Shown: positions 3,401 through 64,000 of the stretch, piece after piece
Position numbering within the stretch: the first letter of the stretch is position 1
How the letters are laid out: every line of letters starts with the position of its first letter
Source: Eledone cirrhosa
Lineage: Eukaryota
Reading direction: 5' to 3'
Assembly: GCA_964016885.1 (NCBI GenBank)
Contig: OZ024744.1
Span: 96,224,001 to 96,288,000 of the forward strand
Length of the DNA stretch: 64,000 nt
Position numbers and translations under genes: made by a program
Notes under the pieces: model-generated
The model's input: the letters and a program-made list of their open reading frames with translations, nothing else
Databases searched by the model: none
Told to the model about the DNA's origin: nothing

Positions 3401-4759
3401 TTCCTTAAAGACTATTATAATCTTCATATTACTTTTGAAAAAACAAGTAAAGTAGTAAATTTCCTAGATATAACTTTAGATTTAGCTACGGGTATCTACC
3501 AACCTTACCATAAACCAAACCAAAACTTACATTACATACACTCACAATCTAATCACCCTAAATCTATCCTTAAAAACCTTGCATATAATATATCACTTAG
3601 AATTTCTAACCTTTCTTCTAACCAAGATGTATTTGATAAAAATGCAACCTTCTATAACGAAGCTCTAGATAGAAGTGGCCACAAAAATAGATTAGAATAT
3701 ATACCTTCTACTAAAAATACTAAAAGCATACAACCTAATATTACCAACAAACACCAAATGAAAAGTACACACCTAAATGCCACCCACACTATACCCCAAA
3801 ATACCAAATCTTCTAATATAAAATATAGTAACTCTCAAAAAACTACTCATCATACAACTCTAATAAATATTAATAATAAAACTCCTAATAAAAAAGATAA
3901 AACACCTAAATCTACAAATATAACTAAAAATGGTTGTGGTGAGATCATTAACATTAATCCTCCTAGTAAACATCACGATACAACCTATAAAAATAATAAA
4001 AATAATAAACAACATAGAAACCGTAATAGACGGGTTACTTGGTATAATGCTCCATTTAATTTACAAATTAAGGATAATATTGCTAAAAATTTTTTTTATA
4101 TCCTAGAGAAAAACTTCCCGCCAAACCACAAATACCATCAAATCTTAAATAGGTCTACAGTTAAATTCTCATACTCAACAACAAATAACATAAAACAAAA
4201 TATAAGTGCCTATAATGCATATAAATGTAAGAAAACCATAAGTATACCACCAATACATCAAATTAACCATAATATCTCCTCAAATACAGAATTAACGAAA
4301 GGTTGTAACTGTAGAAACAAAGCAAACTGCCCATTAAAAGGGAATTGTCTTGTTAACAACATAGTCTATAAATGTAATGTTAAAACTAAAGATTCTATTT
4401 GCTCATATATAGGAGCTACTTCTAACAATTTTAAGACAAGGTTTAATACCCACAAGCATAGTTTTAAAAATGCCGCACTGGCTAATACAACATCTCTAGC
4501 AGAAAAAATCAATAGTTATAAAAATAAGAATATAGAATATGATTTGACCTGGAGTGTGCTCAAAAGAGCCACCCCTTATCAAAATAATAGAAATGAATGT
4601 AGATTATGTTCCCAAGAACTATTTGAAATAATGAAATCTAAGGATATCCTATTAAATAAACGACAGGAATTAATTATATCGTGTAATCATAAACTAAAAA
4701 AAAAACATTTAAATATTATAAACCTAATTAATAACATTATTTTAGAAATTAATATATAA
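3401..4759 (+). pseudogene. 5'-truncated Penelope-like (Naiad-type) RT thumb + GIY-YIG endonuclease ORF
   Basis: VNFLDITLDL, YIHSQSNHP, WYNAPFN, CNCRNKANCPLKGNC, IVYKC...YIGAT..FKTRFNTH and CRLC..E motifs. Starts abruptly after (TA)n. Confidence 0.9.
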
Positions 4760-7099: not shown

Positions 7100-7576
7100 T
7101 GTATATGTATCTCTATTTGTATGTGTATATGTGTATATGTATATACCTTTTTCTTTGTATGTCTGAGTTGTGTGAGAGTGTAGTGGTGTTTGTATGTATA
7201 TACCGATATATGGATGCGTAAGTATTTGTATATATGCGTATATATAAGTACGTATGTGTGGGTGAATTTATATCTATGTCTATGTATGAGTATGTATGTG
7301 TGTGTATGTATGTGTGTATGTGGTTATGTATGTATGTATGTCTGTATGTATATGTGTGTATATATATGTATGTATGTGTATGTCTGTATGTATATAAGTA
7401 TGTATGTGTATGTATATGTGCGTGTATGTGTATATATATGTGTGTCTATATATGTGTGTGTGTATATATGTGTATATATGTGTGTATATATATATATATA
7501 TATGTATGTGTGTATATGTGTGTATATATATATATGTATATGTTTATATATGTGTGTGTGTGTGTTGTATGTGTAG

Positions 7577-7631
<55 letters not shown>

Positions 7632-7960
7632 CTTGATATATTTCTTTTTTCTTTTTTCTTTTTCTTTTCTTTTCTTTTTATTTATAAGTTTATAGATACA
7701 TCTATAAATAAGCAGTCTGCCCAAACCGTTGAATACTGACCTCTCCCCCCCTCCCACCTAATTTCTGTATCTTGATCTAAATGTGTGTGGCAGTGTTTAT
7801 GTGAGTGAATTAATATCCATGTGCTTATGATAATATTATATCCACATATATATGTGTGTGGGGGTGTGTGTGTGTATGTATGTTCGTAATTATGTGTATG
7901 TTTATGCATATACGCGCGCGTGTGTGTGAGTGTACGGATATGTGTGAGTATGAGAATATG
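5860..7960. repeat. Compound (TA/TG) microsatellite with an internal ~590-bp duplication
   Basis: The block ccttttctttgtatgtctgagttgtgtgagagtgtagtgg occurs at ~6558 and ~7146. Confidence 0.9.
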
Positions 7961-8241
7961 TGTATACACTTATTTCATATTTATGTGTCTATACGCATTT
8001 TATCTGTGGATTATAAACTTACAGAGACATTAGCCTTGAATTTTTGTATTTGCATACATCTTTTTGGCATGCGTATGCATGTTGAGCATATATCTTTGTA
8101 TAAATATATGTACGGGGTTAGTTACATGTATATACACACACCAAACTGCATAAAACTTTTTGTATTTTCATTGGTCAATTTTGAACTCCGTTCCCAAACG
8201 GACCTGAAATTTTGAATTGTTGTTATTATCAATAAATATAT

Positions 8242-8396
8242 TTCATTATTTCTGAAGACGGCATATATGTGTGTTTGGTATGTATATTTAATCTTGATAG
8301 TTTGTATAATTTTGTATAATTTTGTACATAGATCTGTTGAATATGCATGCCAATTCTAACACATATATATCCTAGAAACGATCGTTAAATAATGAA
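8242..8396 (+). ncRNA. Type I hammerhead ribozyme with long stem II (PLE pLTR)
   Basis: Stem I ttcattattt(8242)/aaataatgaa(8387) is a perfect 10 bp. Core CTGAAGA at 8252, GAAA at 8375, palindromic stem III ACGATCGT, cleavage triplet GUU. Confidence 0.8.
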
Positions 8397-8450
8397 CTTT
8401 TTTTGTTTAATATAAGGAACTGTTTCATTGTTTTATTCATTATTTGTTTA

Positions 8451-8554
<104 letters not shown>

Positions 8555-8559
8555 CACAT

Positions 8560-8591
<32 letters not shown>

Positions 8592-8716
8592 GTATATATA
8601 CTGTATTTTGCAATACACTGTATGCTTAATTATAAGCATTTTTAAGCCCTTACGCTATTGTTTTAAATTAGTGATTGTGTCACTTACTTCTATTTTCAGC
8701 AAACAAGGGGGAGATA

Positions 8717-8761
8717 AGCCGACAGAGTTCTGTTTCGTACTTGTTGGTACATATCAAAGCT
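8717..8761 (-). ncRNA. Hammerhead ribozyme, U3:A8 variant (A9 mutated), in a short PLE-derived repeat (~8590-8890)
   Basis: Minus strand reads agct TTGATAT gtac caacaa gtac GAAA caga ac tctg TC ggct. Homologous to 60689-60733. Confidence 0.65.
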
Positions 8762-8881
8762 CAGAACCCCTCCTGTTTGCTGAAAATTTATGAATGTTGG
8801 ATTCTTATAGAATTCCAGTAATAATCAGGAACTGATTATACAGAGCGATTGCTGGTCCAGCAAAAGTTGAAAATTAAATTC

Positions 8882-8950
<69 letters not shown>

Positions 8951-8953
<3 letters not shown>

Positions 8954-9387
8954 TATTTATAACTAAAAGTTAAACAAGGTTCATTTATTAATCAATGAAT
9001 AAAGTTTTACAATAGATTAGAAGCACTCAACAAAAAAGTTTTCTGGAGTTATTAATATTAATTCAAAATATTAATAAATGTATACATTCACGTAATAAAA
9101 ATATATTTTATTATATATTTTGAGCTGTTTTATCAGTACGTCCTCATCAGATAAAATACATAAATTGATGTATGACATACCTCAACTGTGCTGATATCCA
9201 GTGCTGATGTCCTGTGCTGATGTCCAGTCTTGCCAAGACTGGAATTGAACCATCAGCATCAATTTCTGTATTTTATCTGATGAGGACGTACTGATAAAAC
9301 ACCACGGTACCTCCGAAATATATATAATAAAATATATTTTGATTACGTGAATGTCTACATTTATTAATATTTTGAATTAATATAAGT
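8951..9387. mobile_element. Small fold-back PLE remnant between (TA)n tracts
   Basis: ~9050-9170 is the inverted copy of ~9257-9383 and contains an HHR. Confidence 0.7.
9269..9334 (+). ncRNA. Minimal type I hammerhead ribozyme
   Basis: Stem I tattttat/ataaaata, core CTGATGA at 9277, stem II ggacgtac/gtacctcc, GAAA at 9315, palindromic stem III ATATATAT, H=A9326. Confidence 0.8.
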
Positions 9388-9828
9388 ATATATATATATA
9401 TATAGAGAAAATTGAGGTTGGTAATGGCACATGGAATATATAAGAGACAGAATACTTTTTTGTGAAAAAACATAATTTTATAAGGTAAGGAAATAATAAA
9501 GGGTATAAAAAATGACCGGTTTCGATGGGTCTGCAAAAGCCATCTTTTCAAATGTTGATTAATATTAAGAAAAATTAATAATACGAAGAGTTAAAATTTG
9601 AGACTTGAAAATTCAAGTATAAAATTCATTGTGGGATTTCATAGCAGTTTTCATCTAGGTAGCAACAACAGGTTGACTGCTGTGTCCCTTTCTGGTAGTG
9701 AATGAGAAGTTATTTGGGGTGTGGGTTATTTTATAAAGGTCAGATTTAGCAATAGCCAGCTGCTGGTCAGTGAGGGGGTGGAAGCAATATACACACACAT
9801 ACCTTCATCCACACATACATGCACATAC

Positions 9829-9875
<47 letters not shown>

Positions 9876-9944
9876 CACACATACATACACACACACATAC
9901 ATATACATACACACATACACACACACACACATATATATACACAT

Positions 9945-10005
<61 letters not shown>

Positions 10006-10036
10006 TATATATACATACACATACATCCAGATACAC

Positions 10037-10139
<103 letters not shown>

Positions 10140-11043
10140 CCCACACATACATACACACACACATATATATATATACATACACACATACAAACATACACAC
10201 ACACACACACACACATATATATACACACATACACACATATATATACACACACACACACACACATGCATATATATATATATACACATACGCATACATCCAG
10301 ATACCCACATACATACACACACACACACACACACGCACACACAATACATACATCCACATGCACACTCATACTCACACACACACACACACACATACATACA
10401 CCCACACACAGAGAAATGGCCTTCAAATATATATATATATATATATACATACACACACAGACACATATATTTTTTCCATAATATAAGAAGTTGGGGCAGT
10501 GAAATTAAAATAATTCTGTGTGCGCATATATACATGGATATACGTGTGTGCACGTGCAGGGTTTAACATGGATGTGTTGGTCACACAAAGGCATGGTCTG
10601 TCAATGAATAAACCTGATTCTACAGAATTGGTCTCTGGTCTTTAATAGTAGTGATTCCGTGCGTATGTGTGTTTATATTTTATGACAATTCTATTGGGGT
10701 GATAACCCGTTTAGTTTTGGTTTAAATTTGTTAAGGAATAGATTTTCTTTGTTTATTCTTTGTTGTTGTGTGAACGAATCTGAGCACTTGTAGAAGGGGA
10801 AGATTTTAAAGTTGGGTAGTGTCATTCCTGCGCAGTTCGCAATATGGCTGCTCAAGGGGATTTTTCTTGTGTTAGCGTCCCGGATTTGTTGGCGGTGGAT
10901 GGTCATTCTTTTGCGTAATGAGGTGCCCGTCTGTCCTATGTAGTTGTGTTTGCACCCACCGCAAGTTATTGCGTAAATCAAGTTCTCCGAGTTGCAGGTG
11001 AAATTGTTTTTTACTGTAAATGTTTGGCCATCTTTGAATGTAA

Positions 11044-11583
11044 ATGTTTGTCCTTCAAATGAAGTCTATTCTTGAAACACACAAGATCCTTAAAAGTAAA
11101 AGACAACCCAAATCACTTAAACGCATTCTCACTGGACCAAATATACCCAAACCAATCCTCAACCCTACAGTTACCAAATGTGGTAGAACAAACTGTGGAA
11201 CGTGCCTCTACCTCACTGAAGGACAAACATTTACATTCAAAGATGGCCAAACATTTACAGTAAAAAACAATTTCACCTGCAACTCGGAGAACTTGATTTA
11301 CGCAATAACTTGCGGTGGGTGCAAACACAACTACATAGGACAGACGGGCACCTCATTACGCAAAAAAATGACCATCCACCGCCAACAAATCCGGGACGCT
11401 AACACAAGAAAAATCCCCTTGAGCAGCCATATTGCGAACTGCGCAGGAATGACACTACCCAACTTTAAAATCTTCCCCTTCTACAAGTGCTCAGATTCGT
11501 TCACACAACAACAAAGAATAAACAAAGAAAATCTATTCCTTAACAAATTTAAACCAAAACTAAACGGGTTATCACCCCAATAG
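11044..11583 (+). pseudogene. C-terminal PLE Zn-linker + GIY-YIG endonuclease fragment (mirror copy 10691-11057 on -)
   Basis: CGRTNCGTC, FTCNSENLIYAITCGGCKHNYIGQT, R..HR, R.NKE and P.LN motifs. Confidence 0.9.
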
Positions 11584-12138
11584 AATTGTCATAAAATATA
11601 AACACACATACGCACGGAATCACTACTATTAAAGACCAGAGACCAATTCTGTAGAATCAGGTTTATTCATTGACAGACCATGCCTTTGTGTGACCAACAC
11701 ATCCATGTTAAACCCTGCACGTGCACACACGTATATCCATGTATATATGCGCACACAGAATTATTTTAATTTCACTGCCCCAACTTCTTATATTATGGAA
11801 AAAATATATGTGTCTGTGTGTGTATGTATATATATATATATATATATATATTTGAAGGCCATTTCTCTGTGTGTGGGTGTATGTATGTGTGTGTGTGTGT
11901 GTGTGAGTATGAGTGTGCATGTGGATGTATGTATTGTGTGTGCGTGTGTGTGTGTGTGTGTGTATGTATGTGGGTATCTGGATGTATGCGTATGTGTATA
12001 TATATATATATGCATGTGTGTGTGTGTGTGTGTATATATATGTGTGTATGTGTGTATATATATGTGTGTGTGTGTGTGTGTGTATGTTTGTATGTGTGTA
12101 TGTATATATATATATGTGTGTGTGTATGTATGTGTGGG

Positions 12139-12241
<103 letters not shown>

Positions 12242-12272
12242 GTGTATCTGGATGTATGTGTATGTATATATA

Positions 12273-12331
<59 letters not shown>

Positions 12332-12400
12332 ATGTGTATATATATGTGTGTGTGTGTGTATGTGTGTATGTATATGTATGTGTGTGTGTATGTATGTGTG

Positions 12401-12449
<49 letters not shown>

Positions 12450-12721
12450 GTATGTGTATGTATGTGTGGATGAAGGTATGTGTGTGTATATTGCTTCCAC
12501 CCCCTCACTGACCAGCAGCTGGCTATTGCTAAATCTGACCTTTATAAAATAACCCACACCCCAAATAACTTCTCATTCACTACCAGAAAGGGACACAGCA
12601 GTCAACCTGTTGTTGCTACCTAGATGAAAACTGCTATGAAATCCCACAATGAATTTTATACTTGAATTTTCAAGTCTCAAATTTTAACTCTTCGTATTAT
12701 TAATTTTTCTTAATATTAATC

Positions 12722-12769
12722 AACATTTGAAAAGATGGCTTTTGCAGACCCATCGAAACCGGTCATTTT
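12722..12769 (+). ncRNA. Minimal hammerhead, U3:A8 variant (mirror at ~9509-9556 on -)
   Basis: aacat TTGAAAA gatgg..ccatc GAAA ccgg TC atttt. Stem I is weak. Confidence 0.6.
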
Positions 12770-12905
12770 TTATACCCTTTATTATTTCCTTACCTTATAA
12801 AATTATGTTTTTTCACAAAAAAGTATTCTGTCTCTTATATATTCCATGTGCCATTACCAACCTCAATTTTCTCTATAACCTTCGTTTTGTGTAGAAAATT
12901 ACACT

Positions 12906-12939
<34 letters not shown>

Positions 12940-12944
<5 letters not shown>

Positions 12945-13701
12945 AACCAGTAAGACCCCGACAGCTGAGCTCAAGCCGTTTCGACGGCTAATTCTGGACT
13001 AAATGAAAATTTATCCTGGTATTTAAATAGCCGATCTTCTCAAGGGGTAATTCCATATATGGTCAAAGTGATTGTCAAAAATCAGTAGTAATTCTGTGGT
13101 TGCAAATTAGTAGGGGAGATGGTGGCTAAACCTGCCAGTAGGAGAAAGAGGGGAGGGGGTGGAGTAGACCCAATCAAGCGTTGGTAGTGCCAGCTACAGC
13201 TGGGCATGAGGTCAAAGAAGATACAGGGGAGGGGGAGGGGGAGGAAGTCGGAACGGTAGGTAGAACAATGGGGGGTAGAAAATTTTCTACCCCCCATTGT
13301 TCTACCTACCGTTCCGACTTCCTCCCCCTCCCCCTCCCCTGTATCTTCTTTGACCTCATGCCCAGCTGTAGCTGGCACTACCAACGCTTGATTGGGTCTA
13401 CTCCACCCCCTCCCCTCTTTCTCCTACTGGCAGGTTTAGCCACCATCTCCCCTACTAATTTGCAACCACAGAATTACTACTGATTTTTGACAATCACTTT
13501 GACCATATATGGAATTACCCCTTGAGAAGATCGGCTATTTAAATACCAGGATAAATTTTCATTTAGTCCAGAATTAGCCGTCGAAACGGCTTGAGCTCAG
13601 CTGTCGGGGTCTTACTGGTTCCTATTACCCACTCTACTACCTCAAGTATTGAGTACTTTGGTGCGTTATGGTCCACCTGGTTCCTTACCACATTTCCTTC
13701 G

Positions 13702-13704
<3 letters not shown>
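12940..13704 (+). mobile_element. Perfect 686-bp spacerless palindrome + ~79-bp tail; non-coding PLE pLTR derivative
   Basis: Centre at 13282/13283 (gtagaaaa|ttttctac), arms 12940-13625, tail to 13704, flanked by (TA)n. Same family as 60311-60519. Confidence 0.85.
13517..13610 (+). ncRNA. Type I hammerhead, U3:A8 variant (mirror 12955-13048 on -)
   Basis: acccc TTGAGAA gatcggcta...tagccgtc GAAA cggct tgagctc agctg TC ggggt. Confidence 0.75.
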
Positions 13705-13747
<43 letters not shown>

Positions 13748-13753
<6 letters not shown>

Positions 13754-27913: not shown

Positions 27914-28805
27914 CAAGCATTTGAAGATGAAACTGAAAGTAGATGGACAGAAAAAAGAATGTATGGACAATTCCATAGAGATGTTGAAGATAGGACAGCC
28001 AGAGAAAAAAAGGTGGTTAGGATGGCTAAAAGTGATCTAAAACCGGAAACAAAATCCCTTAATCTGTGCTGCCCCAGAACAAACACTAAGAACTAAGAAA
28101 CATAGAGTAGACCACACAGCAGAAAGTGATAAGTGTAGAATTTGTGGCATGAATGGAGAAACTATATGGCATATTACCATACCAGCCAATGTACATCACT
28201 AACTCAAAAAGAATATTAGAGACGACATGACAACATAGCAAGGATAGTCCATCGGGTACTTTGTGGCAAATATGCACTTGGCAGAACAGAAAAAAATACA
28301 AACATAACCCCGTGAGCGTTATTGAAAATGATGATGCAAAAATTCCTGTGGGACTTTGTGATACAGTGTAACCATGAGGTTACATAGAAGACCAGATATT
28401 GTATTAATTGAGAAAGAAAGTCAACAATGTTGGATCATAGATCAAAGCCTGTCCTGTTGATAACAAGGTATACGATAAAGAAAGTAAAAAAACAACGCCA
28501 ACAAAAATTGATAGATATCGCAGGTTAGCTTGGGAGGTTAAGCAGTTGTAGTCACTGAAAAAGGTGATGGTAATACCAACAATAGTTGGAGTCTTGGGAA
28601 GAGTGAGTAAAGTTCTTGAGAAGTACATTAAATAAATAGTGATTGTAATACAGATGGAACACTTACAAAAAACAGCATTGATTGGAACAGTTCGAATACT
28701 CTGGAGGGTACTCGAAAAATAAGGGGTATTACTTCAGTTCACTATTAGTGAACAGCTAACACTGTAATACATCTCCAGTGTTAGAAGCTGACCGAAGAAA
28801 CAACA
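25120..28805 (+). mobile_element. Near full-length, heavily mutated R4/Dong-like LINE
   Basis: [46 protein letters not shown] and PD motifs across broken frames. A (CA)/(CAGA) expansion sits at 27785-27910. Confidence 0.85.
25588..25709 (-). mobile_element. 5'-truncated SINE with 20-bp TSD
   Basis: tggaagacaatgacattaat at 25570-25589 and 25710-25729. Confidence 0.9.
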
Positions 28806-28807
28806 TT

Positions 28808-29425
28808 AATAATAATTGTTTCTACTTTTGGCACAAGGCCAGCAATTATCCCAGTACATTACTGGTACTTTATTTTATCTACCCCGTAGGGATGAAAGGC
28901 AAAGTGAACCTCGGCGGGATTTGAACTCAGAATGGGAAAGGCTGTAACTCTTTGCGTCAAAGCATGGCGTCCGACTCTCTACCGATACTGCCATCCACCG
29001 CCATTAATAATAATGGTTTCTGATTTAGGCACAAGGTCAGCAATTACCCAGAACATTACTGGTACTTTATTTTATCGACCCCGTAAGGATGAAAGGCAAA
29101 GTCAACCTTGGCGGGATTTGAACTCAGATCGTAAAGGGACGTAACTATGCTGGAAAGCATGGCGTCCGACCCTCTACCGATACTGCCAATCCACCGCCAT
29201 TAATAATAATGGTTTCTGATTTAGGCACAAGGCCAGCAATTTTGGGGGGAGGGGGATGTCGATGAAATTGACCCCAGTGCATTACTGGTGCTTTATTTAT
29301 CGACCCCGTAAGGATGAAAGGCAAAGTTAACCTCGGCGGGATTTGAACTCAGAATGTAAAGGGCCATAACTCTATGCTGCAAAGCAAGGTGCCTGACGTT
29401 CTACCGATACTGCCAAACCAGCACC
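28808..29425 (-). mobile_element. Three head-to-tail SINEs
   Basis: Units ~28810-29002, 29003-29198 and 29200-29425 are separated by attaataataat. Confidence 0.9.
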
Positions 29426-43800: not shown

Positions 43801-44790
43801 GAAATGGAAAACACAGAAAAAGCAAAGCAGGTAAAAGTAACTGCAAAGAAAGAACTGCTACAGAAACTGGCTAAGAAATGGCAAGAAAAGCCTCTGTATG
43901 GAAAATACCCAGAGCGAGCTAACAATCCTGATGTTGACAAAACTTTAACCCATCAGTGGTTGGCATCCTCTGGACTGAAATCGGAGACTGAAGGACTGAT
44001 TATATCAGCACAAGATCGGTGTCTGCCAACAAAAAATTACCAAGCCAACATAATAAAAAATGGATGCAGCCCATTATGCCGTGTATGTAAAAAACAACCA
44101 GAGACCATTGATCATATAATTTCAATGTGCAGTCCTGTAGCTCCAACCGAATACCTAAACAGGCATGACAGAGCTGCACAATACATACATTGGATAATGT
44201 GTAAGCATTTTGACCTGCCCTATCAAAAGAATTGGTGGGAGCATCAACCACCTCCCATACTTGAAAAAGATCACATCTCAATCTTGTGGAACTTTAGCAT
44301 CCAAACAGACCGAAAAATAGATGCAAATAGACCTGATATAATACTGAAGGACTTTAAAAAGAGGGTATGCCTGCTAATTGATATGTCTGTTCCAATAGAT
44401 AAGAATGTATCTATAAAAACATTTGAAAAATTGAGCAAGTATAAGGGCCTGGAGATAGAAATTCGGAAAATGTGGAAATTGAGAACTAAAACAATACCAG
44501 TGGTTGTAGGCGCTCTAGGAATGATACCTAAGGGGTCTAATGATTACTTATCGCAAATCCCAGGAAACCCGCGTATAGGAGAAATACAAAAGATAGTACT
44601 AATGGGAACTGCCCATATACTAAGCAAGTTTCTGTCAATATAAGTGCATCACAAGTCTAAACACCAAAAGATACATGTGTGTGTATGTGTTCTTTCTTGA
44701 ACATGGCGGACCTTGTTGTTTCTTGAGGTCACTGGTTGTGACTTGGTGATAACTCGTATGAACATAAAGCAAGATAAATGCAACTGTAAT
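40830..44790 (+). mobile_element. Full-length R4/Dong-like LINE (N-terminal stops/frameshifts; RT-RLE ORF 42010-44643 open)
   Basis: GC-rich leader, WSREDNKEVLEAFY N-terminal motif, GIFQGDSLSP, YMDDLKL, CRVC..HIISMC, RHD and NRPDII..D..K. Confidence 0.95.
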
Positions 44791-45166
44791 GATAATTGTT
44801 TCTACGTTAGGCACAAGGCCAGCAATTAACCAGTGTATTATTGGTACTTTATTTTATCGACCCCGTAAGGATGAAAGGCAAAGTTAACCTTGGCGGGATT
44901 TGAACTCAGAATGGCAAGGGCCGTAACTCTATGCGTGAAAGCATGGCGTACGACCCTCTACCGATACTGCCAATCCAATAATAATAATTGTTTCTACTTT
45001 AGGCACAAGGCCAGCAATTACCCAGTGCATTACTGGTACTTTATTTTATCGACCACGTAAGGATGAAAGGCAAAGTCAACCTCGGCGGGATTTGAACTCA
45101 GATCGTAAAGGGACGTAACTATGATGGAAGGCATGGCGTCCGACACTCTACCGATACTGCCAATCC

Positions 45167-45168
<2 letters not shown>
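44790..45168 (-). mobile_element. Two head-to-tail SINEs in the Dong (TAA) tail
   Basis: Two units with B box and Nin domain. Confidence 0.9.
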
Positions 45169-45206
<38 letters not shown>

Positions 45207-48200: not shown

Positions 48201-50043
48201 GAATTGTGGACAGCCTATGCTAGACCTATCTATTTCCCTACAAAATACTCTATCTAGATATGATCTGCATGATCCTATGCGGTTTGTGCAAGTCCACATT
48301 GGCACATTCGGGAAATCCAATCGGTACCTGTCAGACAGTTAAAAACGCCTGAGCAGGTTGGTGAGGCTCTTGCACCCTCCTCCCCTATCCGCTAATCCCA
48401 CACAGTCCCAGCGTGCATCTAAGATCCACTTCCAGTCGCCCACTAACCCTAAACAGCGGGACGTACCAAGAAAGGTCTCCAGACGCCGGAAGAAATCAGG
48501 CCGTCCTGCTCCTGTCGGGGCATCGACGGCCACTAGCCTGAAAGTTTGCCCGTCTCCGCTGGTCACGTCCAGCACCACCAACTTACCTTCTGGGTCCAGG
48601 ACGATGGCCCGTATGACGAGATCCAAACCTCTCCGAAAAAGCACAGCAACTCCTCCCCCGATCCAGGACGTCCTGGATCGGGGTCTGGTTCTGCTATTTT
48701 CTTGTCGTTGTTGCTGGGTGTGTGTGTTTTGTTGTGTTTGCGATGTTGGTGCTTGTGGTGGTGGTGTTGAAGGTGTTGTTGTTGTTGGCGGTGGGGTTGT
48801 CGCCGGTGGTGATGGTGGTGCTAGTATGGGTGGTGATGGTGTTGGTGGTGTTTCTGCTGTAAGTCTCTTTGCAGTAGCCTTTACCCTTTTTTCATTTCTT
48901 CCCTCCCCTTTCGAAGGCGACGATGCGCTGCTTCTGCGTTTGTGCCTTCTTGCGACCTTCTGCCATCCCTCTCCCACCTCACACCCCATGTCCGATTCTG
49001 TGAGGTCGGGGAGGGCTACCAGCTCCAATCTTTTACTTGTTCTTGTTGGTGATGGTTGCAGTGGAGTCTCTGTTGCAGCTGCAGTTGGTATTACTGTTGT
49101 TGTTGTTAATACTTCCACTGCTGCTGCTGTTCTTGATTTCCGTGGCGTAGGTGTGGGTGCCACGGACCTATACTTCCTGGTTTCCGCCTGTCCTGTTGCT
49201 GGTAGCAGTGGAGCCGGTTCCGGAAGGAGGGGGGGGTCTCCTTTCTCAGGTTCTTCTCATTGCAGAAGGCCCTGAGGTGAGTCTTCGACCCACAGCGAAA
49301 GCATTTCGGGCGTTTGCCCTCAACACTTATGGGCAGTTGAGTGCCGTTATCGGAATCTATCACATCCGGGATAGTTTCGATGCACTCCTGGTTGGTTTGA
49401 ATTAACATCTAAATGAAGGCGCCGACCCAATCTTCTTGTACTTTTTTCTGTACTTGCAGTACGGTTGTTTTGTCCTCGATTCCGACGAGGACAGACTCGG
49501 CCAGCCAAGAAGGGGCTATCTCGGGGTGGGGGTGGGGTGGGCAGTAGGAGGGCACCAACACAATTTCCTCGCTCCTTAGGGTCACTAAGGATTGAGCCTT
49601 TGCCTAACGGGGTGTGGCAAAAAGCACGTCCACGGTGTCATATTTCTTGCCTCGGGTGATATGCGTTTTCCGCTGCCACACAGACTCTAAGGCTTTTTGT
49701 ATTTGAGCCTCTGTAGCTCTTTCAACCCTACGTGATTTTGTGCTTACTGTACGGTACGTGACCGTACAGTGCTGTTGGGTTTCGAAAAATTCTTCGGCTG
49801 CCTTGCAGATTGCTCGGTGTCCGGTTTTCGTCTCCATCTTCTTTTCTTCCTGTAATTCCTCATTTGTTATAAGGATGGTCTCCAGGTTCTTTGCGATACC
49901 TGCAAACGAGATTGGTTTTTCTTTGTTGTTGTTGTTGTTGTCGTCAGAGCTGCTGTTACTTTTGTTGTTGCTGCTGTTACTACGACCGCCGCCGCCGCTG
50001 TTGTTGTGGTTGTTGTTGTTGTTGTTGCTGCTGCTGCTTTTGT

Positions 50044-50656: not shown

Positions 50657-50855
50657 ATGCTTTCTTTATTAACCACAAGGGTTGACACAAAGTATAACAT
50701 TAAGGACAATACAGGACAATACAGGACGGTACAAATGGGCATTTCTGGGTGTAAAAAACAAATAAAAAACTGAGGATGTAACAAAAAAAAGAAATAATGA
50801 AAAATTCTCCACTAGTGGAGAGACTTCCGAGGGACATTCGCGGAGAAAGCCCATC
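50657..50855 (-). mobile_element. Tx1-like 3' UTR fragment
   Basis: Same tail, tttctttattaaccacaagg on +. Confidence 0.85.
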
Positions 50856-50856
50856 A

Positions 50857-51472
50857 ATAATAATTGTTTCTACTTTTGGAACAAGGCCAGCAATTATCCC
50901 AGTGCATTACTGGTACTTTATTTTATCGACCCTGTAAGGATGAAAGGCAAAGTTAACCTCGGCGGGATTTGAACTCAGATCGTAAAGGCCCGTAACTCCA
51001 TGCTGCAAAGCATGGCGTCCAACCCTCTATTTAATAATTGTTTCTACTTTAGGCACAAGGCCAGCAATTACCCAGTACATTACTGGTACTTTATTTTATC
51101 GACCCCGTAAGGATGAAAGACAAAGTTAACCTTGGCGGGATTTGAACTCAGATCACAAAGGGACGTAACTGTGCTGCAAAGCATGGCGTCCGACCCTCTA
51201 TTTAATAATTGTTTCTACTTTAGGAACAAGGCCAGCAATTACCCAGTACATTACTGGTACTTTATTTTATCGACCCCGTAAGGATGAAAGGCAAAGTTAA
51301 CCTCGGCGGGATTTGAACTCAGACTGTAAAGAGACGTAACTATGCTAGAAAGCATGGCGTCTACCGATACATTTAATAATTGTTTCTACTTTAGGCACAA
51401 GGCCAGCAAATTACCCAGTGCATTACTGGTACTTTATTTTATCGACCCCGTAAGGATGAAAGGCAGAGTCAA
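50857..51472 (-). mobile_element. Four tandem 5'-truncated SINEs
   Basis: Units start at ~50857, 51032, 51202 and 51373. Confidence 0.9.
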
Positions 51473-51547
51473 CAATGATAGCTATTTCTATTCTCTTCCT
51501 CTTATTCAGCAGGTTCCAAAAGTAGAAAAAATTATATTATATTATAT

Positions 51548-51904: not shown

Positions 51905-54900
51905 TTTTAGTAATTTATATTCCTGCTCTGTAAAACTCCTGATGTTCTTACATTGAGCTATTTCTCTTACTGGTAATAAGGTAGTAATAAATTACTGACC
52001 TTTCCTGTTTATAGTTGTTTATAGTATATACATAACTATAAATAGTATCATTATTATTATTAACTTCTCCATACTCTTGAGTTAACATACATTAAATTAC
52101 CAGTATGAAAATCAAAGATTACCTTCCTATGTCTACTAAGAACATACCAATACCATCTAAAGATACATATGAAAAAGTATTGATTAATAGTGTCAACTCT
52201 TTTATCAATAGAGTGAGATGGAGGACATTCCATTACGATAGAAACTGATCAGACAAAAACAGAGATACAAACAATTTCGACTCTTACGGCTTTAAAACTT
52301 TTAAAAGCCCTCCTCATTAAACTCTTCTGAAAATGACCTAATAAAACTAGTTAAGAACATTAAATATAAAAAGCATCGAAATAGAAACAACACCTTCTTA
52401 AACAACCTTAACTCCACTATTAAAGGATTTAATAAAAAAAAAATTCTAGTACATGCAGATAAAACTAATAATATATATAGCTTAGATTACGATACTTATA
52501 GAACATTTATATATAAAGAACTGCATAGGAGCTATAAGAAAACTACTATAAAAAACCTAGAAGATATAAATATAGAAGGCCGTAGTATAGTGTGTAAATT
52601 AAGACTTCAGAGACATACACAGTCATACACCCCTAACCCCCCCAAGATTCTCTCTGAAGGACTATAAAGAAGACTTCATTAGTAACCCTTCAATAAGACT
52701 AATCTGCCCTTCCAAATCTGACATTGGTATTATCAGCAAGAACATTTTAGATAAAATCATCCCACAGATTAAGCACAAAATATATCAACCAGTGGGGAAA
52801 TACGGGTGAAGTTATTGAATGGTTCAAGGATATTAAAAAGAATAAAAAAAAAAATTTATACAATTTGATATCAATTCATACTACACCTCTATTTCCCTTA
52901 TCCTATTAAATAAGGCATTGAGTAAGGCCATGAACAATAGTGACCTGACAAGATCCCAAATTGATGTGATACTTGCGGCCCGAAAAACCATAATTACATT
53001 TGAAGATCAATTATGGACCCGCAAGGATACGCACAACTTTGACATAACTATGGGATCTAGTGACTCGGCGCAGATCACTGATTTGGTGGGCCTATATCTA
53101 CTAAATGGAATTCATAAGAACCTACCCTACCTCAATGGTGGTTTATACCGCGATGATGCACTACTCCTTATAGACTATAAAAAAATTAATATAGAAAGAA
53201 CTAGGAAACAATTACATAACATTTTCAAAAACTTCAACTTAAGTATCACCTTAGATAAAAACACTAAAAACATTAACTTCCTTGATGCTACCCTTTGGCT
53301 GGACTCTAAAATATATATACCCTTTCATAAACTAAACGAAAAACTAATTATGTGGATATCAACTCTAACCACCCTAAATCCATATTAAACTCAATTAATA
53401 AAGGAATATCTAATAGAATCTCTAATCTATCATATAACGAAACCATATTTAACAATAATTCCCAATACTATAATGAGGCCTTAGTTAAATCAGGCCATAC
53501 AAATGGGATTGAATTCCTACCTATAAAATCACATAGTTACATTATTTCTCACAATATGGCCATGAGGAAAAATAATAAAAGTACTAGCCACTCTAACTCT
53601 AATACGAAGGGTAATATCAAACTTAACTCGCACCAAAGTAAACAACCACAATAATAATATAAACAGAAATACAAATACCTAAAAAAACATTACAAAAAAC
53701 AAAATAATACATTCTTCAATCCCCCTTTCAATATAAACGTCTCTACCAACTTACCTAAGGCTTTCTTCTCAATACCGGAAAAAAACTTCCCATCCGGCCA
53801 CAAATACCATAATCTTATCAATAAAAATACCATTAAAATCTCTTACTCTACCACACCTAACATCGCAAACCATATAGCTAGTAGCAAGAAAAGGAAGATT
53901 AATAATTATTTGCAACTAATTAAAACACAACAGGAGGTAAACGTACAGTACAACATAGTACCTGTAAATCCTAGTATCAATAGTAATAATTGTTTCTACT
54001 TTAGGCACAAGGCCAGTAATTACCCAGTGCATTACTGGTACTTTATTTTATCGACCCCGTAAGGATGAAAGGCAAAGTCAACCTCGGCGGGATTTGAACT
54101 CAGATCGTAAAGGGACGTAACCATTATTACTCTAATGCTATCCCTAGCAACCAGACTTCTAATAACCGGCAAGCAAACATCCAGAATATATGTAATTGTA
54201 GAACAAATAGAACTTGCCCCTTAGGTAATAATTGCTTAATTAAAGACATCATTTACCGATGCACGGTCAACACAAACAATTCTTCTAAAACATATATTTG
54301 CTCTACTTCGAACTGCTTCAAGACGAGATACAACTCGCACCTCCACTCTTTCAAAAAACACAATCTAGCCAACTCCACTTCTTTATCTAGCTACATACAC
54401 TCTCTGAAAACTAGCAATAGACCATATACACTTCAATGGGAAGTAGTAGGTAGAGCCACATCGTATAAACCACCGAATAAATTGTGTAACCGCTGTCTTC
54501 TAGAAACCCGTACTATAATCTTTTCGAAACTAGATCTCCTAAATAGAAAACCAGAGGTGCTTTCCTCATGCCAGCACCACTACCGACACTCGTTCCATAA
54601 CTTTAAACCTAGCTGCTAGTATATAACAATGTCAGATTTGAATTCCTCACCACCATTAACACTTCACCTCTAGGACTTATCAGCCCCACAGCATCACACT
54701 CTTTGATCAGCTCTTTCCTCTACACAACTCCTATTTATCTCAAACCTTATACTCTACAATAACTATTAGAAATAAACAATAAATGATCACCTTTTAATAT
54801 AACTACTATAGCTTACTTATTATATACAGTAATGTGGATTGGCAGTATTGGTAGAGGGTCGGACACCATGCTTTGACGTATAGAGTTACGGCCCTTGCCT

Positions 54901-58107: not shown

Positions 58108-60270
58108 GCGAAACATGTGTAAGAGCTTTATAAAGATATGATTTAACGGCTTGTAACTCTTTCATTAATTATTTTGCCTATCACCGCTCTGCTTAATCCT
58201 GTTCACTAAATATAAATTTTCTCTAATATTTAACCCTGATAACCCAAGCATCGAGCACTTACGCACCCGCTTTTGGCATGTAATACTCCGTGTCGCACCT
58301 CTTTATACCTCTTCTTTCCATCCTCTTTTACGATACTGTAACATTTTATTATTGCGCTCCTTTCAGTAGAGCCCAACTTACTACTTGCCATCATGTTGGA
58401 GAAACAACCGTTAGCTATGTATCTCAAGTCTATACCTATACCTAGCAGAAAAAAAACTTACCTTAAACAACTCATTGCCTCTACGAATTCGTTTATACGT
58501 AGGGTCAGATGGAAGGCCTACCATTTGGATAAGGATACTGATAATCTTCCAGCACCTAAAGAAAAATACGGCTTTAAGACCTACCAGAACCCACTGCACA
58601 ATACACTGTTGGACTCATTTGAGGAAGATTTACTCAGAATGATAAAAAAGATCAAGTTTAAGAATAGACGCAAATGCAGCAATACATTCCTGACATCCCT
58701 GGACTCTCTCATCACTAAAATCAAGAACGAAGACACCTTTTCGTTGCCTCTGATAAAACTAAGAACTTGTATAAGTTGGATGTAAGTAGATATAGACAAA
58801 TCATCTATAATGAATCAAACAAAAATTACATGAAAACGCCTATTAGCACTTTAAACGACATTACTAGATTAGGCAAAGACATTGTAACTAGCTTAGATAT
58901 AGATAAATACACTAACCCTTATGTACCTATGGCACCAACATTTTCTCTTAAGGATCACAAATATAATTTTAACGAAAGCCCCTCTATTAGATTAATATGC
59001 CCCTCCACTTCAGATATAGGTAGAATTAGCAAAGTGATCCTCGATAGGATAATACCCGAACTTAATAGTAAAGCTAAGGTCCGTCTCTGGAACAATACCG
59101 ACCAGGTCATTAAATGGTTCACAGGTTTACCTGATAAGGTATCTCTGAAATTTATCCAGTTCGACATAGACAATTACTACACCTCTATTTCCTCTGTACT
59201 TCTAAATAAGGCCTCCATCTTAGCTAGATCTAACACTAGTTTAACTAAATAAGAAATAGATATAGTGCTTGCAGCGCGAAGAACCATTGTTCATTTCGAG
59301 GGCTCCTACTGGACCAGAACCAACCGTCCTGATAACTTTGATATCACGATGGGGTCATGTGACTCAGTGCAGGCAACTGACCGGGTCGAGATTTACCTCC
59401 TGCACAGACTTAGAGACGAGAGGTCTGTGCTACAAGGAGGCGTGTATAGGGACATGCCCTATTCACTGTAAAGAACCATAGCCCCCGTAGGATAGAAAAC
59501 CTTAATAAACATACACACAAGTTCTTTAAATCATACAGCCTCTCTGTAACTATCGACCACAACCATAATATAGTTAACTTCTTAGATGTTACGTTAGAAT
59601 AAGGTACCTCTTAAACATACCATAACACAAGCCTGGTGAGGTCCTTTCCTACATCAACTATGCTTCTAACCACCCTAAATCTACGCTCAACTCTATTATG
59701 TATAGCATCTCACATAGAATCTCGAGGCTTTCTGCTAATGAAGACCTCTTCATTGGCTGATTCAGGTTATAACAGCAAAATTTCATACCTCCATGGCGCA
59801 AGCTCTATAAAGCCGCCCCCCCCCATGTATGACCAGTGTTATAGTGAGCCATACCTGTAACCAACGCCACAGCGGCCTTACAAGCGTAAAAAGTATTAGA
59901 AGAGCTAATAATTATTTCTACTTTAGGCACAAGGCCAGCAATTACTCAGTACAATTACTTACTACTTAGGTTAATTCCTTTTAAATACTAAAATAAAACA
60001 TTTTACATAGCTGGTAGAGGTCATTAGTTAGAGAAGAAACGTTTTACTAGCACCGGTAATTACCTCCCTTAGCATACTAATCTCTTCCCACCGTGTTTTA
60101 TACTTAACCACGTATATTTAATATACACTGTAATGTAAAATTATTATTTTACCCGAATAGGGTATATAATTAAAACTTTGCCTTAATATCTGCCTCAATC
60201 GAGCTCCATTGGGCGAAACATGTGTAAGAGATTTATAAAGATATGTTTTAACGGCTTGTAACTCTTTCAA

Positions 60271-60310: not shown

Positions 60311-60315
<5 letters not shown>

Positions 60316-60514
60316 CGAAGGAAATGTGGTAAGGAACCAGGTGGACCATAACGCACCAAAGTACTCAATACTTAGGGTAGTAGAGTGGGTAATAGGAACG
60401 AGTAGGACCCCGACGGCTGAGCTCAAGCCGTTTCGACGGCTAATTCTGGACTAAATTTAGTCCAGAATTAGCCGTCGAAACGGCTTGAGCTCAGCCGTCG
60501 GGGTCCTACTCGTT

Positions 60515-60519
<5 letters not shown>
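60311..60519 (-). mobile_element. 128-bp spacerless palindrome + tail, same family as 12940-13704
   Basis: Centre 60455/60456, arms 60392-60519, tail 60311-60391, (TA)n flanks. Confidence 0.85.
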
Positions 60520-60570
<51 letters not shown>

Positions 60571-60688
60571 TTGGAACTCTGAAATAGCAATATATATATG
60601 GATGTATATATAATGTATTTTGCAATACACTTTATGCTTAATTAAAGAATATAACATCAGTAATCTCGGTAGACAGGAGGGAGTAGTT

Positions 60689-60733
60689 AGCCTTGATAAG
60701 CTTCAACAAAAGCGAAACAAGGCCTTGTCGGCT
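60689..60733 (+). ncRNA. Hammerhead ribozyme, U3:A8 variant, inside fold-back repeat ~60566-60850
   Basis: agcc TTGATAA gctt caacaa aagc GAAA caag gc cttg TC ggct. The inverted repeat is 60612-60646/60813-60848. Confidence 0.8.
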
Positions 60734-60856
60734 TATCTCCCCTGTTTGCTGAGATTAAAGTAAGTAAATTTGTCACTACTCTAAAACAATAGCATACGGT
60801 CTTCAAAATGCTTTTAATTAAGCATAAAGTGTATTGCAAAATACATTATATATACA

Positions 60857-60954
<98 letters not shown>

Positions 60955-63123: not shown

Positions 63124-63273
63124 GGCGTCCAAAGTTAAGACATTGGAGAACTTTGGAGTTAAGCAGGAATCCGACTTCAGATCAGCATCTGTCGACTTCG
63201 TAATAAGAAGTCTTCCTCCACACCTGCTATCAAGAACGCGCCTGGGGTTCTCCTTTCTTCAGAGAGGTGCATC
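63124..63273 (+). repeat. Inverted duplicate of RTE segment 62522-62671
   Basis: Near-identical reverse complement (ORFs 62485-62721 and 63143-63328 share sequence). Confidence 0.85.
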
Positions 63274-63275
63274 AT

Positions 63276-64000
63276 TTCTCTATATTATCGATACTCCTGA
63301 ACAAAGCCTTGATATTTGCCAAAAATAGATCAGACTTAACTATGGATGACATCAATATTATCACGTACGCTAGACAAACACTACTGGAGTTTCAGAAGGA
63401 ATACTGGACCAGAAATACATATAGTAATCTCTTCGACATAACTATGGGCTCTAGTGATTCTGCCCAAATTACCGATCTTTATGACATCTTTCTGCTATTT
63501 AACATTAATTCATCTTTTCCCCACCTTAAAGGTGGTTTATATCGTGATGACTGTCTTCTTCTATCCACTAATCTTAGCCTATCAGAAATTGAAATAAATA
63601 AAAAACTTATTAGAACTTTCCTCAAAGACTATTATAATCTCACTATTACATTTGAAAACACCAGTAAAATAGTAAATTTCCTAGATATAACTATGGACCT
63701 ATCTACGGGTATCTACCAACCTTACCATAAACCTAACCAAAACTTGCATTTCATACACTCACAATCCAATCACCCTAGATCTATCCTTAAAAACCTAGCA
63801 TATAATATCTCACTCAGAATCTCTAACCTTTCATCAAATCAGGATGTATTCGATAAAAATGCGTCCTTTTATAACGAAGCTTTAGCTAGAAGCGGATACA
63901 AAAACAAATTAGTCTATATACCTTGCACCAATAATATTTCAAACATACAACCTAATATTACCAACAAACACCAAATGAAAAACCCACACCTAAATGCCAC
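63276..64000 (+). mobile_element. Naiad-like Penelope RT fragment, same family as 3401-4759, runs off window
   Basis: FDITMGSSDSAQ, GGLYRDDC, VNFLDIT and SNHP motifs. 63619-64000 aligns at nucleotide level with 3401-3783. Confidence 0.9.

What the first reader, a model, noticed from the sequence alone, without database searches (positions are those of the whole stretch)
12940..13704. Spacerless ribozyme palindromes with fixed outer ends but variable fold-back centre
Seen: 12940-13625 is a perfect 686-bp palindrome and 60392-60519 is a perfect 128-bp palindrome of the same family. In both, the short arm ends at the same base (...gttcctat|(AT)n, about 20 nt 3' of the predicted HHR cut). The long arm carries the same ~80-nt tail ending ccttcgtta|(TA)n. 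Only the centre differs. The copies differ from each other by substitutions, yet each is internally symmetric. Inference: insertion uses two defined priming points in a (TA)n target, and a prematurely ended cDNA snaps back on itself. This would be a reproducible hairpin-forming integration route for a non-coding PLE RNA. Established: inverted pLTRs and 3' tails are known for Penelope, but usually with a spacer.
Basis: partly seen in the sequence, partly recalled or inferred. Interest (0 to 1): 0.75.

Follow-up and report, generated by a model that had tools for sequence, protein, structure and literature searches.

The report
Twin-primed Penelope stumps record capped RNA
These DNA palindromes are truncated copies of a very abundant protein-coding Penelope-type jumping gene, likely built when both cut DNA strands copy one RNA to its start and the two copies join head to head, and the bases left at the joins likely record where that RNA was capped or cut by its own predicted ribozyme.

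Summary
Both palindromes are perfect and share two outer ends, which recur about 20,000 times in the genome and in raw reads of three other samples of the same species label.

The interpretation needs changing. The sequence is the end repeat (pLTR) and tail of an autonomous Hydra-clade Penelope-like element with an intact 719-aa ORF, not a non-coding RNA. Perfect palindromes are only 5 of 67 two-arm copies. The short arm reaches further 5' than the tail arm in 32 of 67, which snap-back of the tail cDNA cannot give, yet both arms carry the same subfamily alleles.

Centres are not free: 53 of 67 lie in a 13-nt zone behind a TATA/initiator-like site. Joins at its A283 carry extra C/G (22 against 2 A/T; cap-like). 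Joins at the predicted hammerhead cut carry A/T (12 against 1; p=6e-7).

Best model (inferred): twin priming on one RNA, run-off at its 5' end, head-to-head joining. The insertion shape is published. This scan reached twin priming earlier on other DNA; I found no note or paper on the cap signature.

The parts
12910..12942 (.). (TA)n target, left flank of the 686-bp copy; shared with the tail of a neighbouring PLE of another family
12940..13281 (-). Short (inverted) arm: pLTR e2-e343, where e = window position minus 13282 on the long arm; ends at priming site 1
13282..13283 (.). Centre dinucleotide AT; the matching full element (L030/L101) has A, not T, before e2, so likely one untemplated A on each cDNA; this centre occurs once in the genome by exact pattern
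13284..13625 (+). Long arm, pLTR part e2-e343; the whole long arm e2-e422 is 100% identical to the pLTR and tail in L030/L101
13517..13610 (+). Predicted type I hammerhead: stem I ACCCC/GGGGU, U3-A8 core UUGAGAA at 13522-13528, long stem/loop II, GAAA, stem III with palindromic loop, GUC cut after 13605; mirror copy on the minus strand at 12955-13048
   Evidence: read by eye from the sequence, fold, alignment; no Rfam hit here; U3-A8 variant known from PMC4209133
13536..13565 (+). Predicted internal promoter inside hammerhead loop II: TATTTAAA at 13536-13543, initiator-like A at 13561 (e279) and 13565 (e283)
   Evidence: junction peak and extra-G signature; no RNA data
13626..13704 (+). 79-nt tail (e344-e422), ending at priming site 2; in the full element it lies in the 5' leader, about 90 nt before the first ATG
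13703..13750 (.). (TA)n target, right flank
60313..60455 (-). Second copy, long arm e280-e422 including the tail (60391-60313)
60456..60519 (+). Second copy, short arm e280-e343; centre 60455|60456 at the e279 initiator-like site; the same 26-nt centre is 17 of 50 listed loci among 948

Best explanation
The palindromes are 5'-truncated insertions of an abundant protein-coding Penelope-like element, likely made when both nicked strands of a (TA)n site prime reverse transcription on one RNA at two fixed internal sites, both copies run to the RNA's 5' end, and their 3' ends are then likely joined head to head. Shown from sequence: the autonomous source element, the two fixed outer ends, the clustering of inner ends, the asymmetry in both directions, the allele match between arms and the junction bases. 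Inferred: the RNA starts at e279/e283 from a promoter inside the pLTR, so priming at the 5'-proximal sites (61 and 140 nt from e283) gives the dominant ~200-bp stumps; an extra sense G at e283 is copied from the cap; a minority of RNAs begin at the hammerhead cut (e324), are uncapped and receive A instead; the cDNA ends pair through 0-4 nt and each templates the other's second strand. A perfect palindrome results when both cDNAs stop at the same base. The 128-bp copy is of the start-site class. The 686-bp copy needs an uncleaved read-through RNA across the whole pLTR and tail (as a tandem such as L101 would give) that ended or stalled at e2.
For: Source: L101 holds a 786-codon open frame (719 aa from the first Met) between pLTRs 99-100% identical to the window copy; 2,054 homologues, mostly about 700 aa; model pLDDT 89.7 with telomerase RT as the two best fold matches. 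Outer ends: 96 of 100 tail-selected loci run into (TA)n, 88 at the exact base; 87 of 100 listed hits of a pattern that excludes the intact tail run from e343 straight into TA repeats and 6 more do so with one changed base (23,356 hits); raw reads of three other samples show the same ends in 2,596-2,907 and 7,398-10,149 reads each. Two cDNAs: short arm further 5' in 32, tail arm in 26, equal in 9 of 67; 5 loci with no overlap; joints of that lopsided kind in raw reads. One template: alleles match between arms at three variable sites in 50/50, 51/51 and 49/51 against 25, 30 and 22 expected; equal inner ends 9 against 3.3 in shuffles, p=0.004. Cap-like signature: of 50 listed e283/e283 joins (553 in the genome), 22 have a single C/G, 2 CG, 11 C-(A/T)-G, 9 none, 2 a single A/T, 4 other (counted by hand). 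At the predicted cut, of 50 listed (315 in the genome), 13 are blunt, 12 have a single A/T, 1 a single C/G, 3 have two A/T bases, 12 longer mostly A/T-rich inserts and 9 are templated (by hand). Single inserts 22:2 against 1:12, Fisher p=6e-7. In vitro precedent: a lizard PLE protein nicks and extends both strands from two internal RNA sites (PMC11167929). An extra G marks cap copying in full-length L1 (PMC11702581, passage).
Against: No RNA data: the start site, cap and ribozyme cut are inferred from DNA junctions only. An unexplained G also precedes C286 in 9 of 100 listed control hits, so extra G is not confined to e283. TATTTAAA is intact in only 5 of 11 aligned long copies, and 4 of 11 have C3 opposite A8 in the ribozyme core. 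Rfam does not detect this hammerhead. Blunt CCCCGGGG joins at the cut (13 of 50) can also be read as CG microhomology at e323. The neighbouring-position control (223 loci) was not clean, as many hits again had one arm at or near e324. Allele identity between arms also fits snap-back or later gene conversion. The sample is the first 100 exact tail hits, all on contig C1, favouring young copies; 27 had no short arm within 800 bp and 6 were dropped as mis-parsed, tandem or read-through (L010, L029, L056, L074, L081, L094). For the single 686-bp copy, snap-back cannot be excluded.
Confidence: 0.75

Rival explanations
1. Snap-back or self-priming: one cDNA primed at the tail end stops early, folds back and copies itself to e343 (first reader; close to the self-priming model of PMC3846280, which invokes an antisense template).
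For: Arms always share alleles; in 26 of 67 the tail arm is longer, as a hairpin loop would leave; equal ends are enriched; perfect palindromes exist (5 of 67).
Against: 32 of 67 have the short arm longer and 5 have no overlap; zero- or one-base loops with C on both sides are hard to form by folding one strand; it does not explain why the copy stops at e343. It may still account for a subset.
Confidence: 0.12
2. All copies began as symmetric palindromes, and later hairpin processing, deletion and gene conversion made the asymmetry and kept the arms alike.
For: Long palindromes are known to be unstable (general knowledge, recalled); many joins have 1-5 nt microhomology.
Against: Non-overlapping and lopsided copies include ones 99-100% identical to the active element (L012, L021, L045); deletion would not leave site-specific C/G at e283 and A/T at e324; older copies do carry arm-arm differences (41 in 2,898 nt).
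Confidence: 0.07
3. A separate non-autonomous hairpin or retrozyme-like family that multiplies as a finished unit.
For: The ~200-bp form dominates, and some joins recur hundreds of times.
Against: Joins are heterogeneous within each subfamily; most recurring ones match self-complementary or microhomologous ends, two of them explained by variants seen in long copies (C282, A286); short copies lack the TATA-like box and the ribozyme's 5' half.
Confidence: 0.04
4. Fold-back library or assembly artefact.
For: No listed record bridges the 686-bp centre; polishing could have evened the arms.
Against: Flanks differ on the two sides and the tail is one-sided; both outer ends and opposite-strand joints are in raw short reads of three other samples, and the short-arm end is in contigs of four runs under three organism labels.
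Confidence: 0.02

Closest known systems
EN+ Penelope-like insertions with inverted pLTR and one-sided tail (PMC3846280, passages; PMC8557442, passages and section 11)
   Same: Head-to-head 5'-truncated copy directly adjacent, tail on one side, palindromes at the inverted junction, AT-rich or (TA)n targets.
   Different: Tail is 79 nt rather than 30-40; most copies are ~200-bp stumps whose joins cluster at one site; published explanation is self-priming, whereas the joins here point to two cDNAs.
Hydra clade of PLEs (PMC8557442, section 11 read whole)
   Same: C-terminal EN, RW(K/R), DKT, CxCX5C linker, CxxC and CxH around E and N, no internal CCHH, (TA)n insertion, single ORF.
   Different: RWR instead of RWK; repeat unit 3.1 kb against 'generally <3 kb'; hammerhead has the U3-A8 core and a long loop II; no tree was built with named Hydra families.
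Poseidon element of Anolis carolinensis in vitro (PMC11167929, parts 1-2 of 4 and passages)
   Same: Both strands nicked and extended; two internal RT start sites that delimit the tail; AT-rich target.
   Different: The passages seen do not treat inverted junctions; that paper found no RNA reads at the ribozyme cut, whereas joins here peak at the predicted cut.
L1 twin priming and cap-derived extra G (PMC11702581, passages)
   Same: Two primed cDNAs from one target break give an inversion; extra G at complete 5' ends.
   Different: L1's second priming site varies and the two segments barely overlap; here both sites are fixed and the segments usually overlap fully, giving a palindrome.
Non-LTR retrozymes (bioRxiv 10.64898/2026.07.22.740005, part 1 of 5)
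   Same: PLE-related type I hammerhead in dispersed short copies.
   Different: Retrozymes are head-to-tail tandem units with complete ribozymes; these are head-to-head stumps, mostly with half a ribozyme.

Membership tests
EN+ Penelope-like element | Single ORF with telomerase-like RT | tested here: met
   L101 ORF; YRDDGL invariant in 37 sequences; best fold matches are TERTs, E 3e-8, TM about 0.33. Pfam and PDB sequence searches found nothing.
EN+ Penelope-like element | C-terminal GIY-YIG endonuclease | tested here: met
   VIY...YIG motif with downstream R, H, E, N, conserved in the alignment; top homologue P0001 has Pfam GIY-YIG. The L101 protein itself has no Pfam hit, so this rests on motif and homologue.
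EN+ Penelope-like element | pLTRs from partial tandems, adjacent inverted copy, one-sided tail | tested here: met
   L101 structure; 75 of 102 loci have an inverted arm within 800 bp.
Hydra clade | RWK, DKT, CxCX5C linker, CxxC and CxH flanking E/N, no CCHH | tested here: met
   RWR (RWK in most homologues), DKT, CNC-x5-C, CNLC, CKH; no cysteine pair inside the GIY-YIG core apart from one C.
Hydra clade | Insertion into (TA)n | tested here: met
   96 of 100 tail ends; 62 of 67 short-arm ends.
Hydra clade | Phylogenetic placement with named Hydra families | not tested
   No named Hydra sequences were at hand; the paper's supplements were not opened.
Type I hammerhead ribozyme | Three stems around the conserved core with an NUH cut site | tested here: inconclusive
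   Stems I-III, GAAA and GUC present; U3-A8 core in 7 of 11 long copies, C3-A8 in 4; no Rfam hit at this site.
Type I hammerhead ribozyme | Self-cleavage | not testable with these tools
   Indirect only: 41 of 50 listed joins have both arms starting at the predicted cut (13 of them ambiguous blunt joins), mostly with A/T inserts.
Non-LTR retrozyme | Head-to-tail tandem of units each with a complete hammerhead, non-coding | tested here: not met
   Head-to-head arrangement, coding parent; the one short tandem seen (L094) lacks the ribozyme's 5' half.

The most novel reading that the evidence does not exclude
The junctions of tens of thousands of insertions are a fossil record of the unsolved Penelope cycle: one RNP nicks both strands, primes one RNA twice, copies the cap on both cDNAs and lets each cDNA template the other's second strand, while about 300 insertions copied from ribozyme-cut, uncapped RNA show that a metazoan PLE hammerhead cleaves in vivo and that its promoter sits inside the ribozyme's loop II.
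Probability: 0.6. Interest if true: 0.72.

Novelty: new variant of a known kind. Interest (0 to 1): 0.56.

Why it matters
[quoted passage not shown] The junction statistics give base-level predictions: start site at e279/e283, cap copied on both arms, A-tailing at the ribozyme cut, both arms from one RNA. These can be tested with CAGE and with the existing in vitro PLE system. The palindrome shape itself is ordinary for the class.

Tried and rejected
DNA search of the genome returned nothing because the family's words are too common; patterns were used instead. Rfam gave only microRNA-hairpin noise and no hammerhead at the finding. Pfam and PDB sequence searches missed the ORF. The first junction parse had an off-by-one reference and was redone. 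An apparent cluster of ends at e1-e2 was an artefact of query length: the element continues upstream and the 686-bp centre is unique. I first read the commonest join as cap-related; it fits the C282 variant with 4-nt microhomology better. The e287/e287 control (442 loci) was dominated by templated overlaps and one recurring TA centre, so it did not test the cap idea. The e331 control was confounded. RAD reads start at AATT sites inside both arms, so symmetric hot-spot joins could not be seen. The protein atlas gave no result. Paper searches listed no paper that, by title or abstract start, proposes twin priming or cap copying for PLE palindromes; the library lacks most subscription journals, and supplements of PMC8557442 and PMC11167929, which may list this family or its junctions, were not opened.

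Full report
Observation. Both palindromes are as described: 12940-13625 (686 bp) and 60392-60519 (128 bp) are perfect, the copies are 96.5% identical over 144 nt, both short arms end at the same base and both long arms carry the same 79-nt tail into (TA)n. Below, e is the position on the long arm (window position minus 13282): the short arm ends at e343, the tail at e422 and the predicted hammerhead cut follows e323.

The family. A 28-nt tail motif has 18,916 exact hits in the 3.0-Gb genome. I fetched the first 100 places listed. One, L101, is a complete element: an inverted truncated copy ending at the tail, then a partial tandem, a pLTR with tail, a 786-codon open frame and a pLTR ending at e343 in (TA)n. 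Its pLTR is 99-100% identical to the window's long arm. The 719-aa protein from the first Met has 2,054 homologues among 7,996 candidates scored, mostly about 700 aa. It folds confidently and matches telomerase RT best, and it carries the Hydra-clade motifs listed in PMC8557442 section 11. The window copies are therefore 5'-truncated pieces of a coding element, and the tail lies in its 5' leader.

Outer ends. Of 100 tail-selected loci, 96 run into (TA)n, 88 at the exact base. A pattern anchored at e324-339 that excludes the intact tail has 23,356 hits; 87 of the 100 listed run from e343 into TA repeats, 6 more do so with one changed base, 3 end 2-3 nt later, 3 are tail variants and 1 is other (counted by hand). 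Raw RAD-seq reads of three other samples of the same species label show loose (AT)n ends at both positions in thousands of reads each. Contigs of four runs under three organism labels show the short-arm end (X1 may be the assembly's own source).

Centres. Of the 100 loci, 73 had a short arm within 800 bp and 67 were kept after dropping six mis-parsed, tandem or read-through loci. In 53 of 67 at least one arm ends at e279-291. Only 5 of 67 have a perfectly palindromic junction. The short arm reaches further 5' in 32, the tail arm in 26, and they are equal in 9 (3.3 expected by shuffling, p=0.004). In 5 the arms share no sequence, and lopsided opposite-strand joints are in raw reads too. Long spacers are rare among the kept loci: most joins have 1-5 nt of overlap, none, or a short insert. 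The 128-bp centre is a recurring class (17 of 50 listed among 948 loci); the 686-bp centre occurs once.

One template, two cDNAs. At three variable sites the two arms of an insertion agree in 50 of 50, 51 of 51 and 49 of 51 pairs, against 25, 30 and 22 expected from random pairing. A cDNA primed at the tail that folds back can only give a short arm contained in the long arm, which fails for about half the copies. Two cDNAs primed at e343 and e422 on one RNA fit all classes. This matches the in vitro behaviour of the Anolis Poseidon protein, which nicks and extends both strands from two internal sites delimiting the tail (PMC11167929).

What the hot spot is. TATTTAAA starts at e254 and initiator-like adenines lie at e279 and e283, 25 and 29 nt later, inside loop II of the predicted hammerhead. 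Where both arms end at e283 (553 loci), the 50 listed have between them a single C or G in 22, CG in 2, C-(A/T)-G in 11, nothing in 9, a single A/T in 2 and other in 4. That is an untemplated sense-strand G before e283 on one or both arms, the mark that cap copying leaves in L1 (PMC11702581). Where both arms end within a few bases of the predicted ribozyme cut (315 loci), 41 of 50 listed start both arms at e324; single inserts there are A/T in 12 and C/G in 1. The contrast, 22:2 against 1:12, has p=6e-7 and is what a capped versus an uncapped 5' end would give.

Limits. There are no RNA data. Extra G also appears before e286 in 9 of 100 control hits. The TATA-like box is intact in 5 of 11 long copies and the core is C3-A8 in 4 of 11. 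Thirteen blunt joins at the cut have another reading, the e331 control was confounded, and Rfam does not see this hammerhead. The locus sample favours young copies on one contig. Neither of the window's own centres was bridged by an independent record.

Mechanism (inferred). RNA starts at e279/e283. The endonuclease nicks both strands of (TA)n, and each 3' end primes at one of two fixed sites, with 2-3 nt of TA pairing. Priming near the RNA's 5' end gives cDNAs of about 60 and 140 nt that run off the cap; their 3' ends pair through 0-4 nt and each is extended on the other. Equal stopping points give a perfect palindrome. The 686-bp copy needs an uncleaved read-through RNA over the whole pLTR and tail; its central AT fits one added A per cDNA. 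Snap-back remains possible for that copy alone.

What is known. Inverted pLTRs, one-sided tails and palindromes at the inverted junction, explained by self-priming, are in PMC3846280 and PMC8557442; opposite-strand hammerhead pairs 100-700 bp apart and the U3-A8 core are in PMC4209133. My searches listed no paper proposing twin priming or cap copying for these junctions. Earlier agents of this scan reached twin priming, run-off and stops at the ribozyme cut on other DNA, including this genome (read after I had formed my reading); a word search for the cap signature found no note.

Verdict. Interest 0.56.

Noticed in passing
window 9401-12909: A second PLE family in the same layout, directly beside the finding: 1.66-kb inverted arms at 99.4% identity, a 159-nt unpaired centre, a GIY-YIG reading frame at 11059-11580 (Pfam E 5e-5) with CxxC motifs, a 3' region rich in microsatellites and a tail of about 32 nt.
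   Followed up: partly
window 60599-60860: A third inverted insertion next to the 128-bp copy, with arms of about 48 nt and a weak hammerhead hit at 60686-60742 that also appears to have a U3-A8 core.
   Followed up: partly
window 3401-4708, 52084-54610, 58396-59751, 63264-63926: Broken ORFs of other families related to the L101 protein, 33-52% identical.
   Followed up: no
L094, about 720 bp upstream of the tail end: [quoted passage not shown]
   Followed up: partly
window 9055-9383: Another short inverted pair (127 nt, 89%) between (TA)n tracts, possibly an older PLE stump.
   Followed up: no
window 25585-59999, e.g. 28793-29210, 44772-45184, 50841-51473: A dispersed and tandem SINE-like repeat of 170-200 bp following (AAT)n tracts.
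   Followed up: no
window 48656-48683: Isolated perfect 28-bp GC-rich palindrome.
   Followed up: no
G000:C2:276983735-277001127: Six near-identical tiny palindromic stumps within 18 kb, suggesting local duplication.
   Followed up: no
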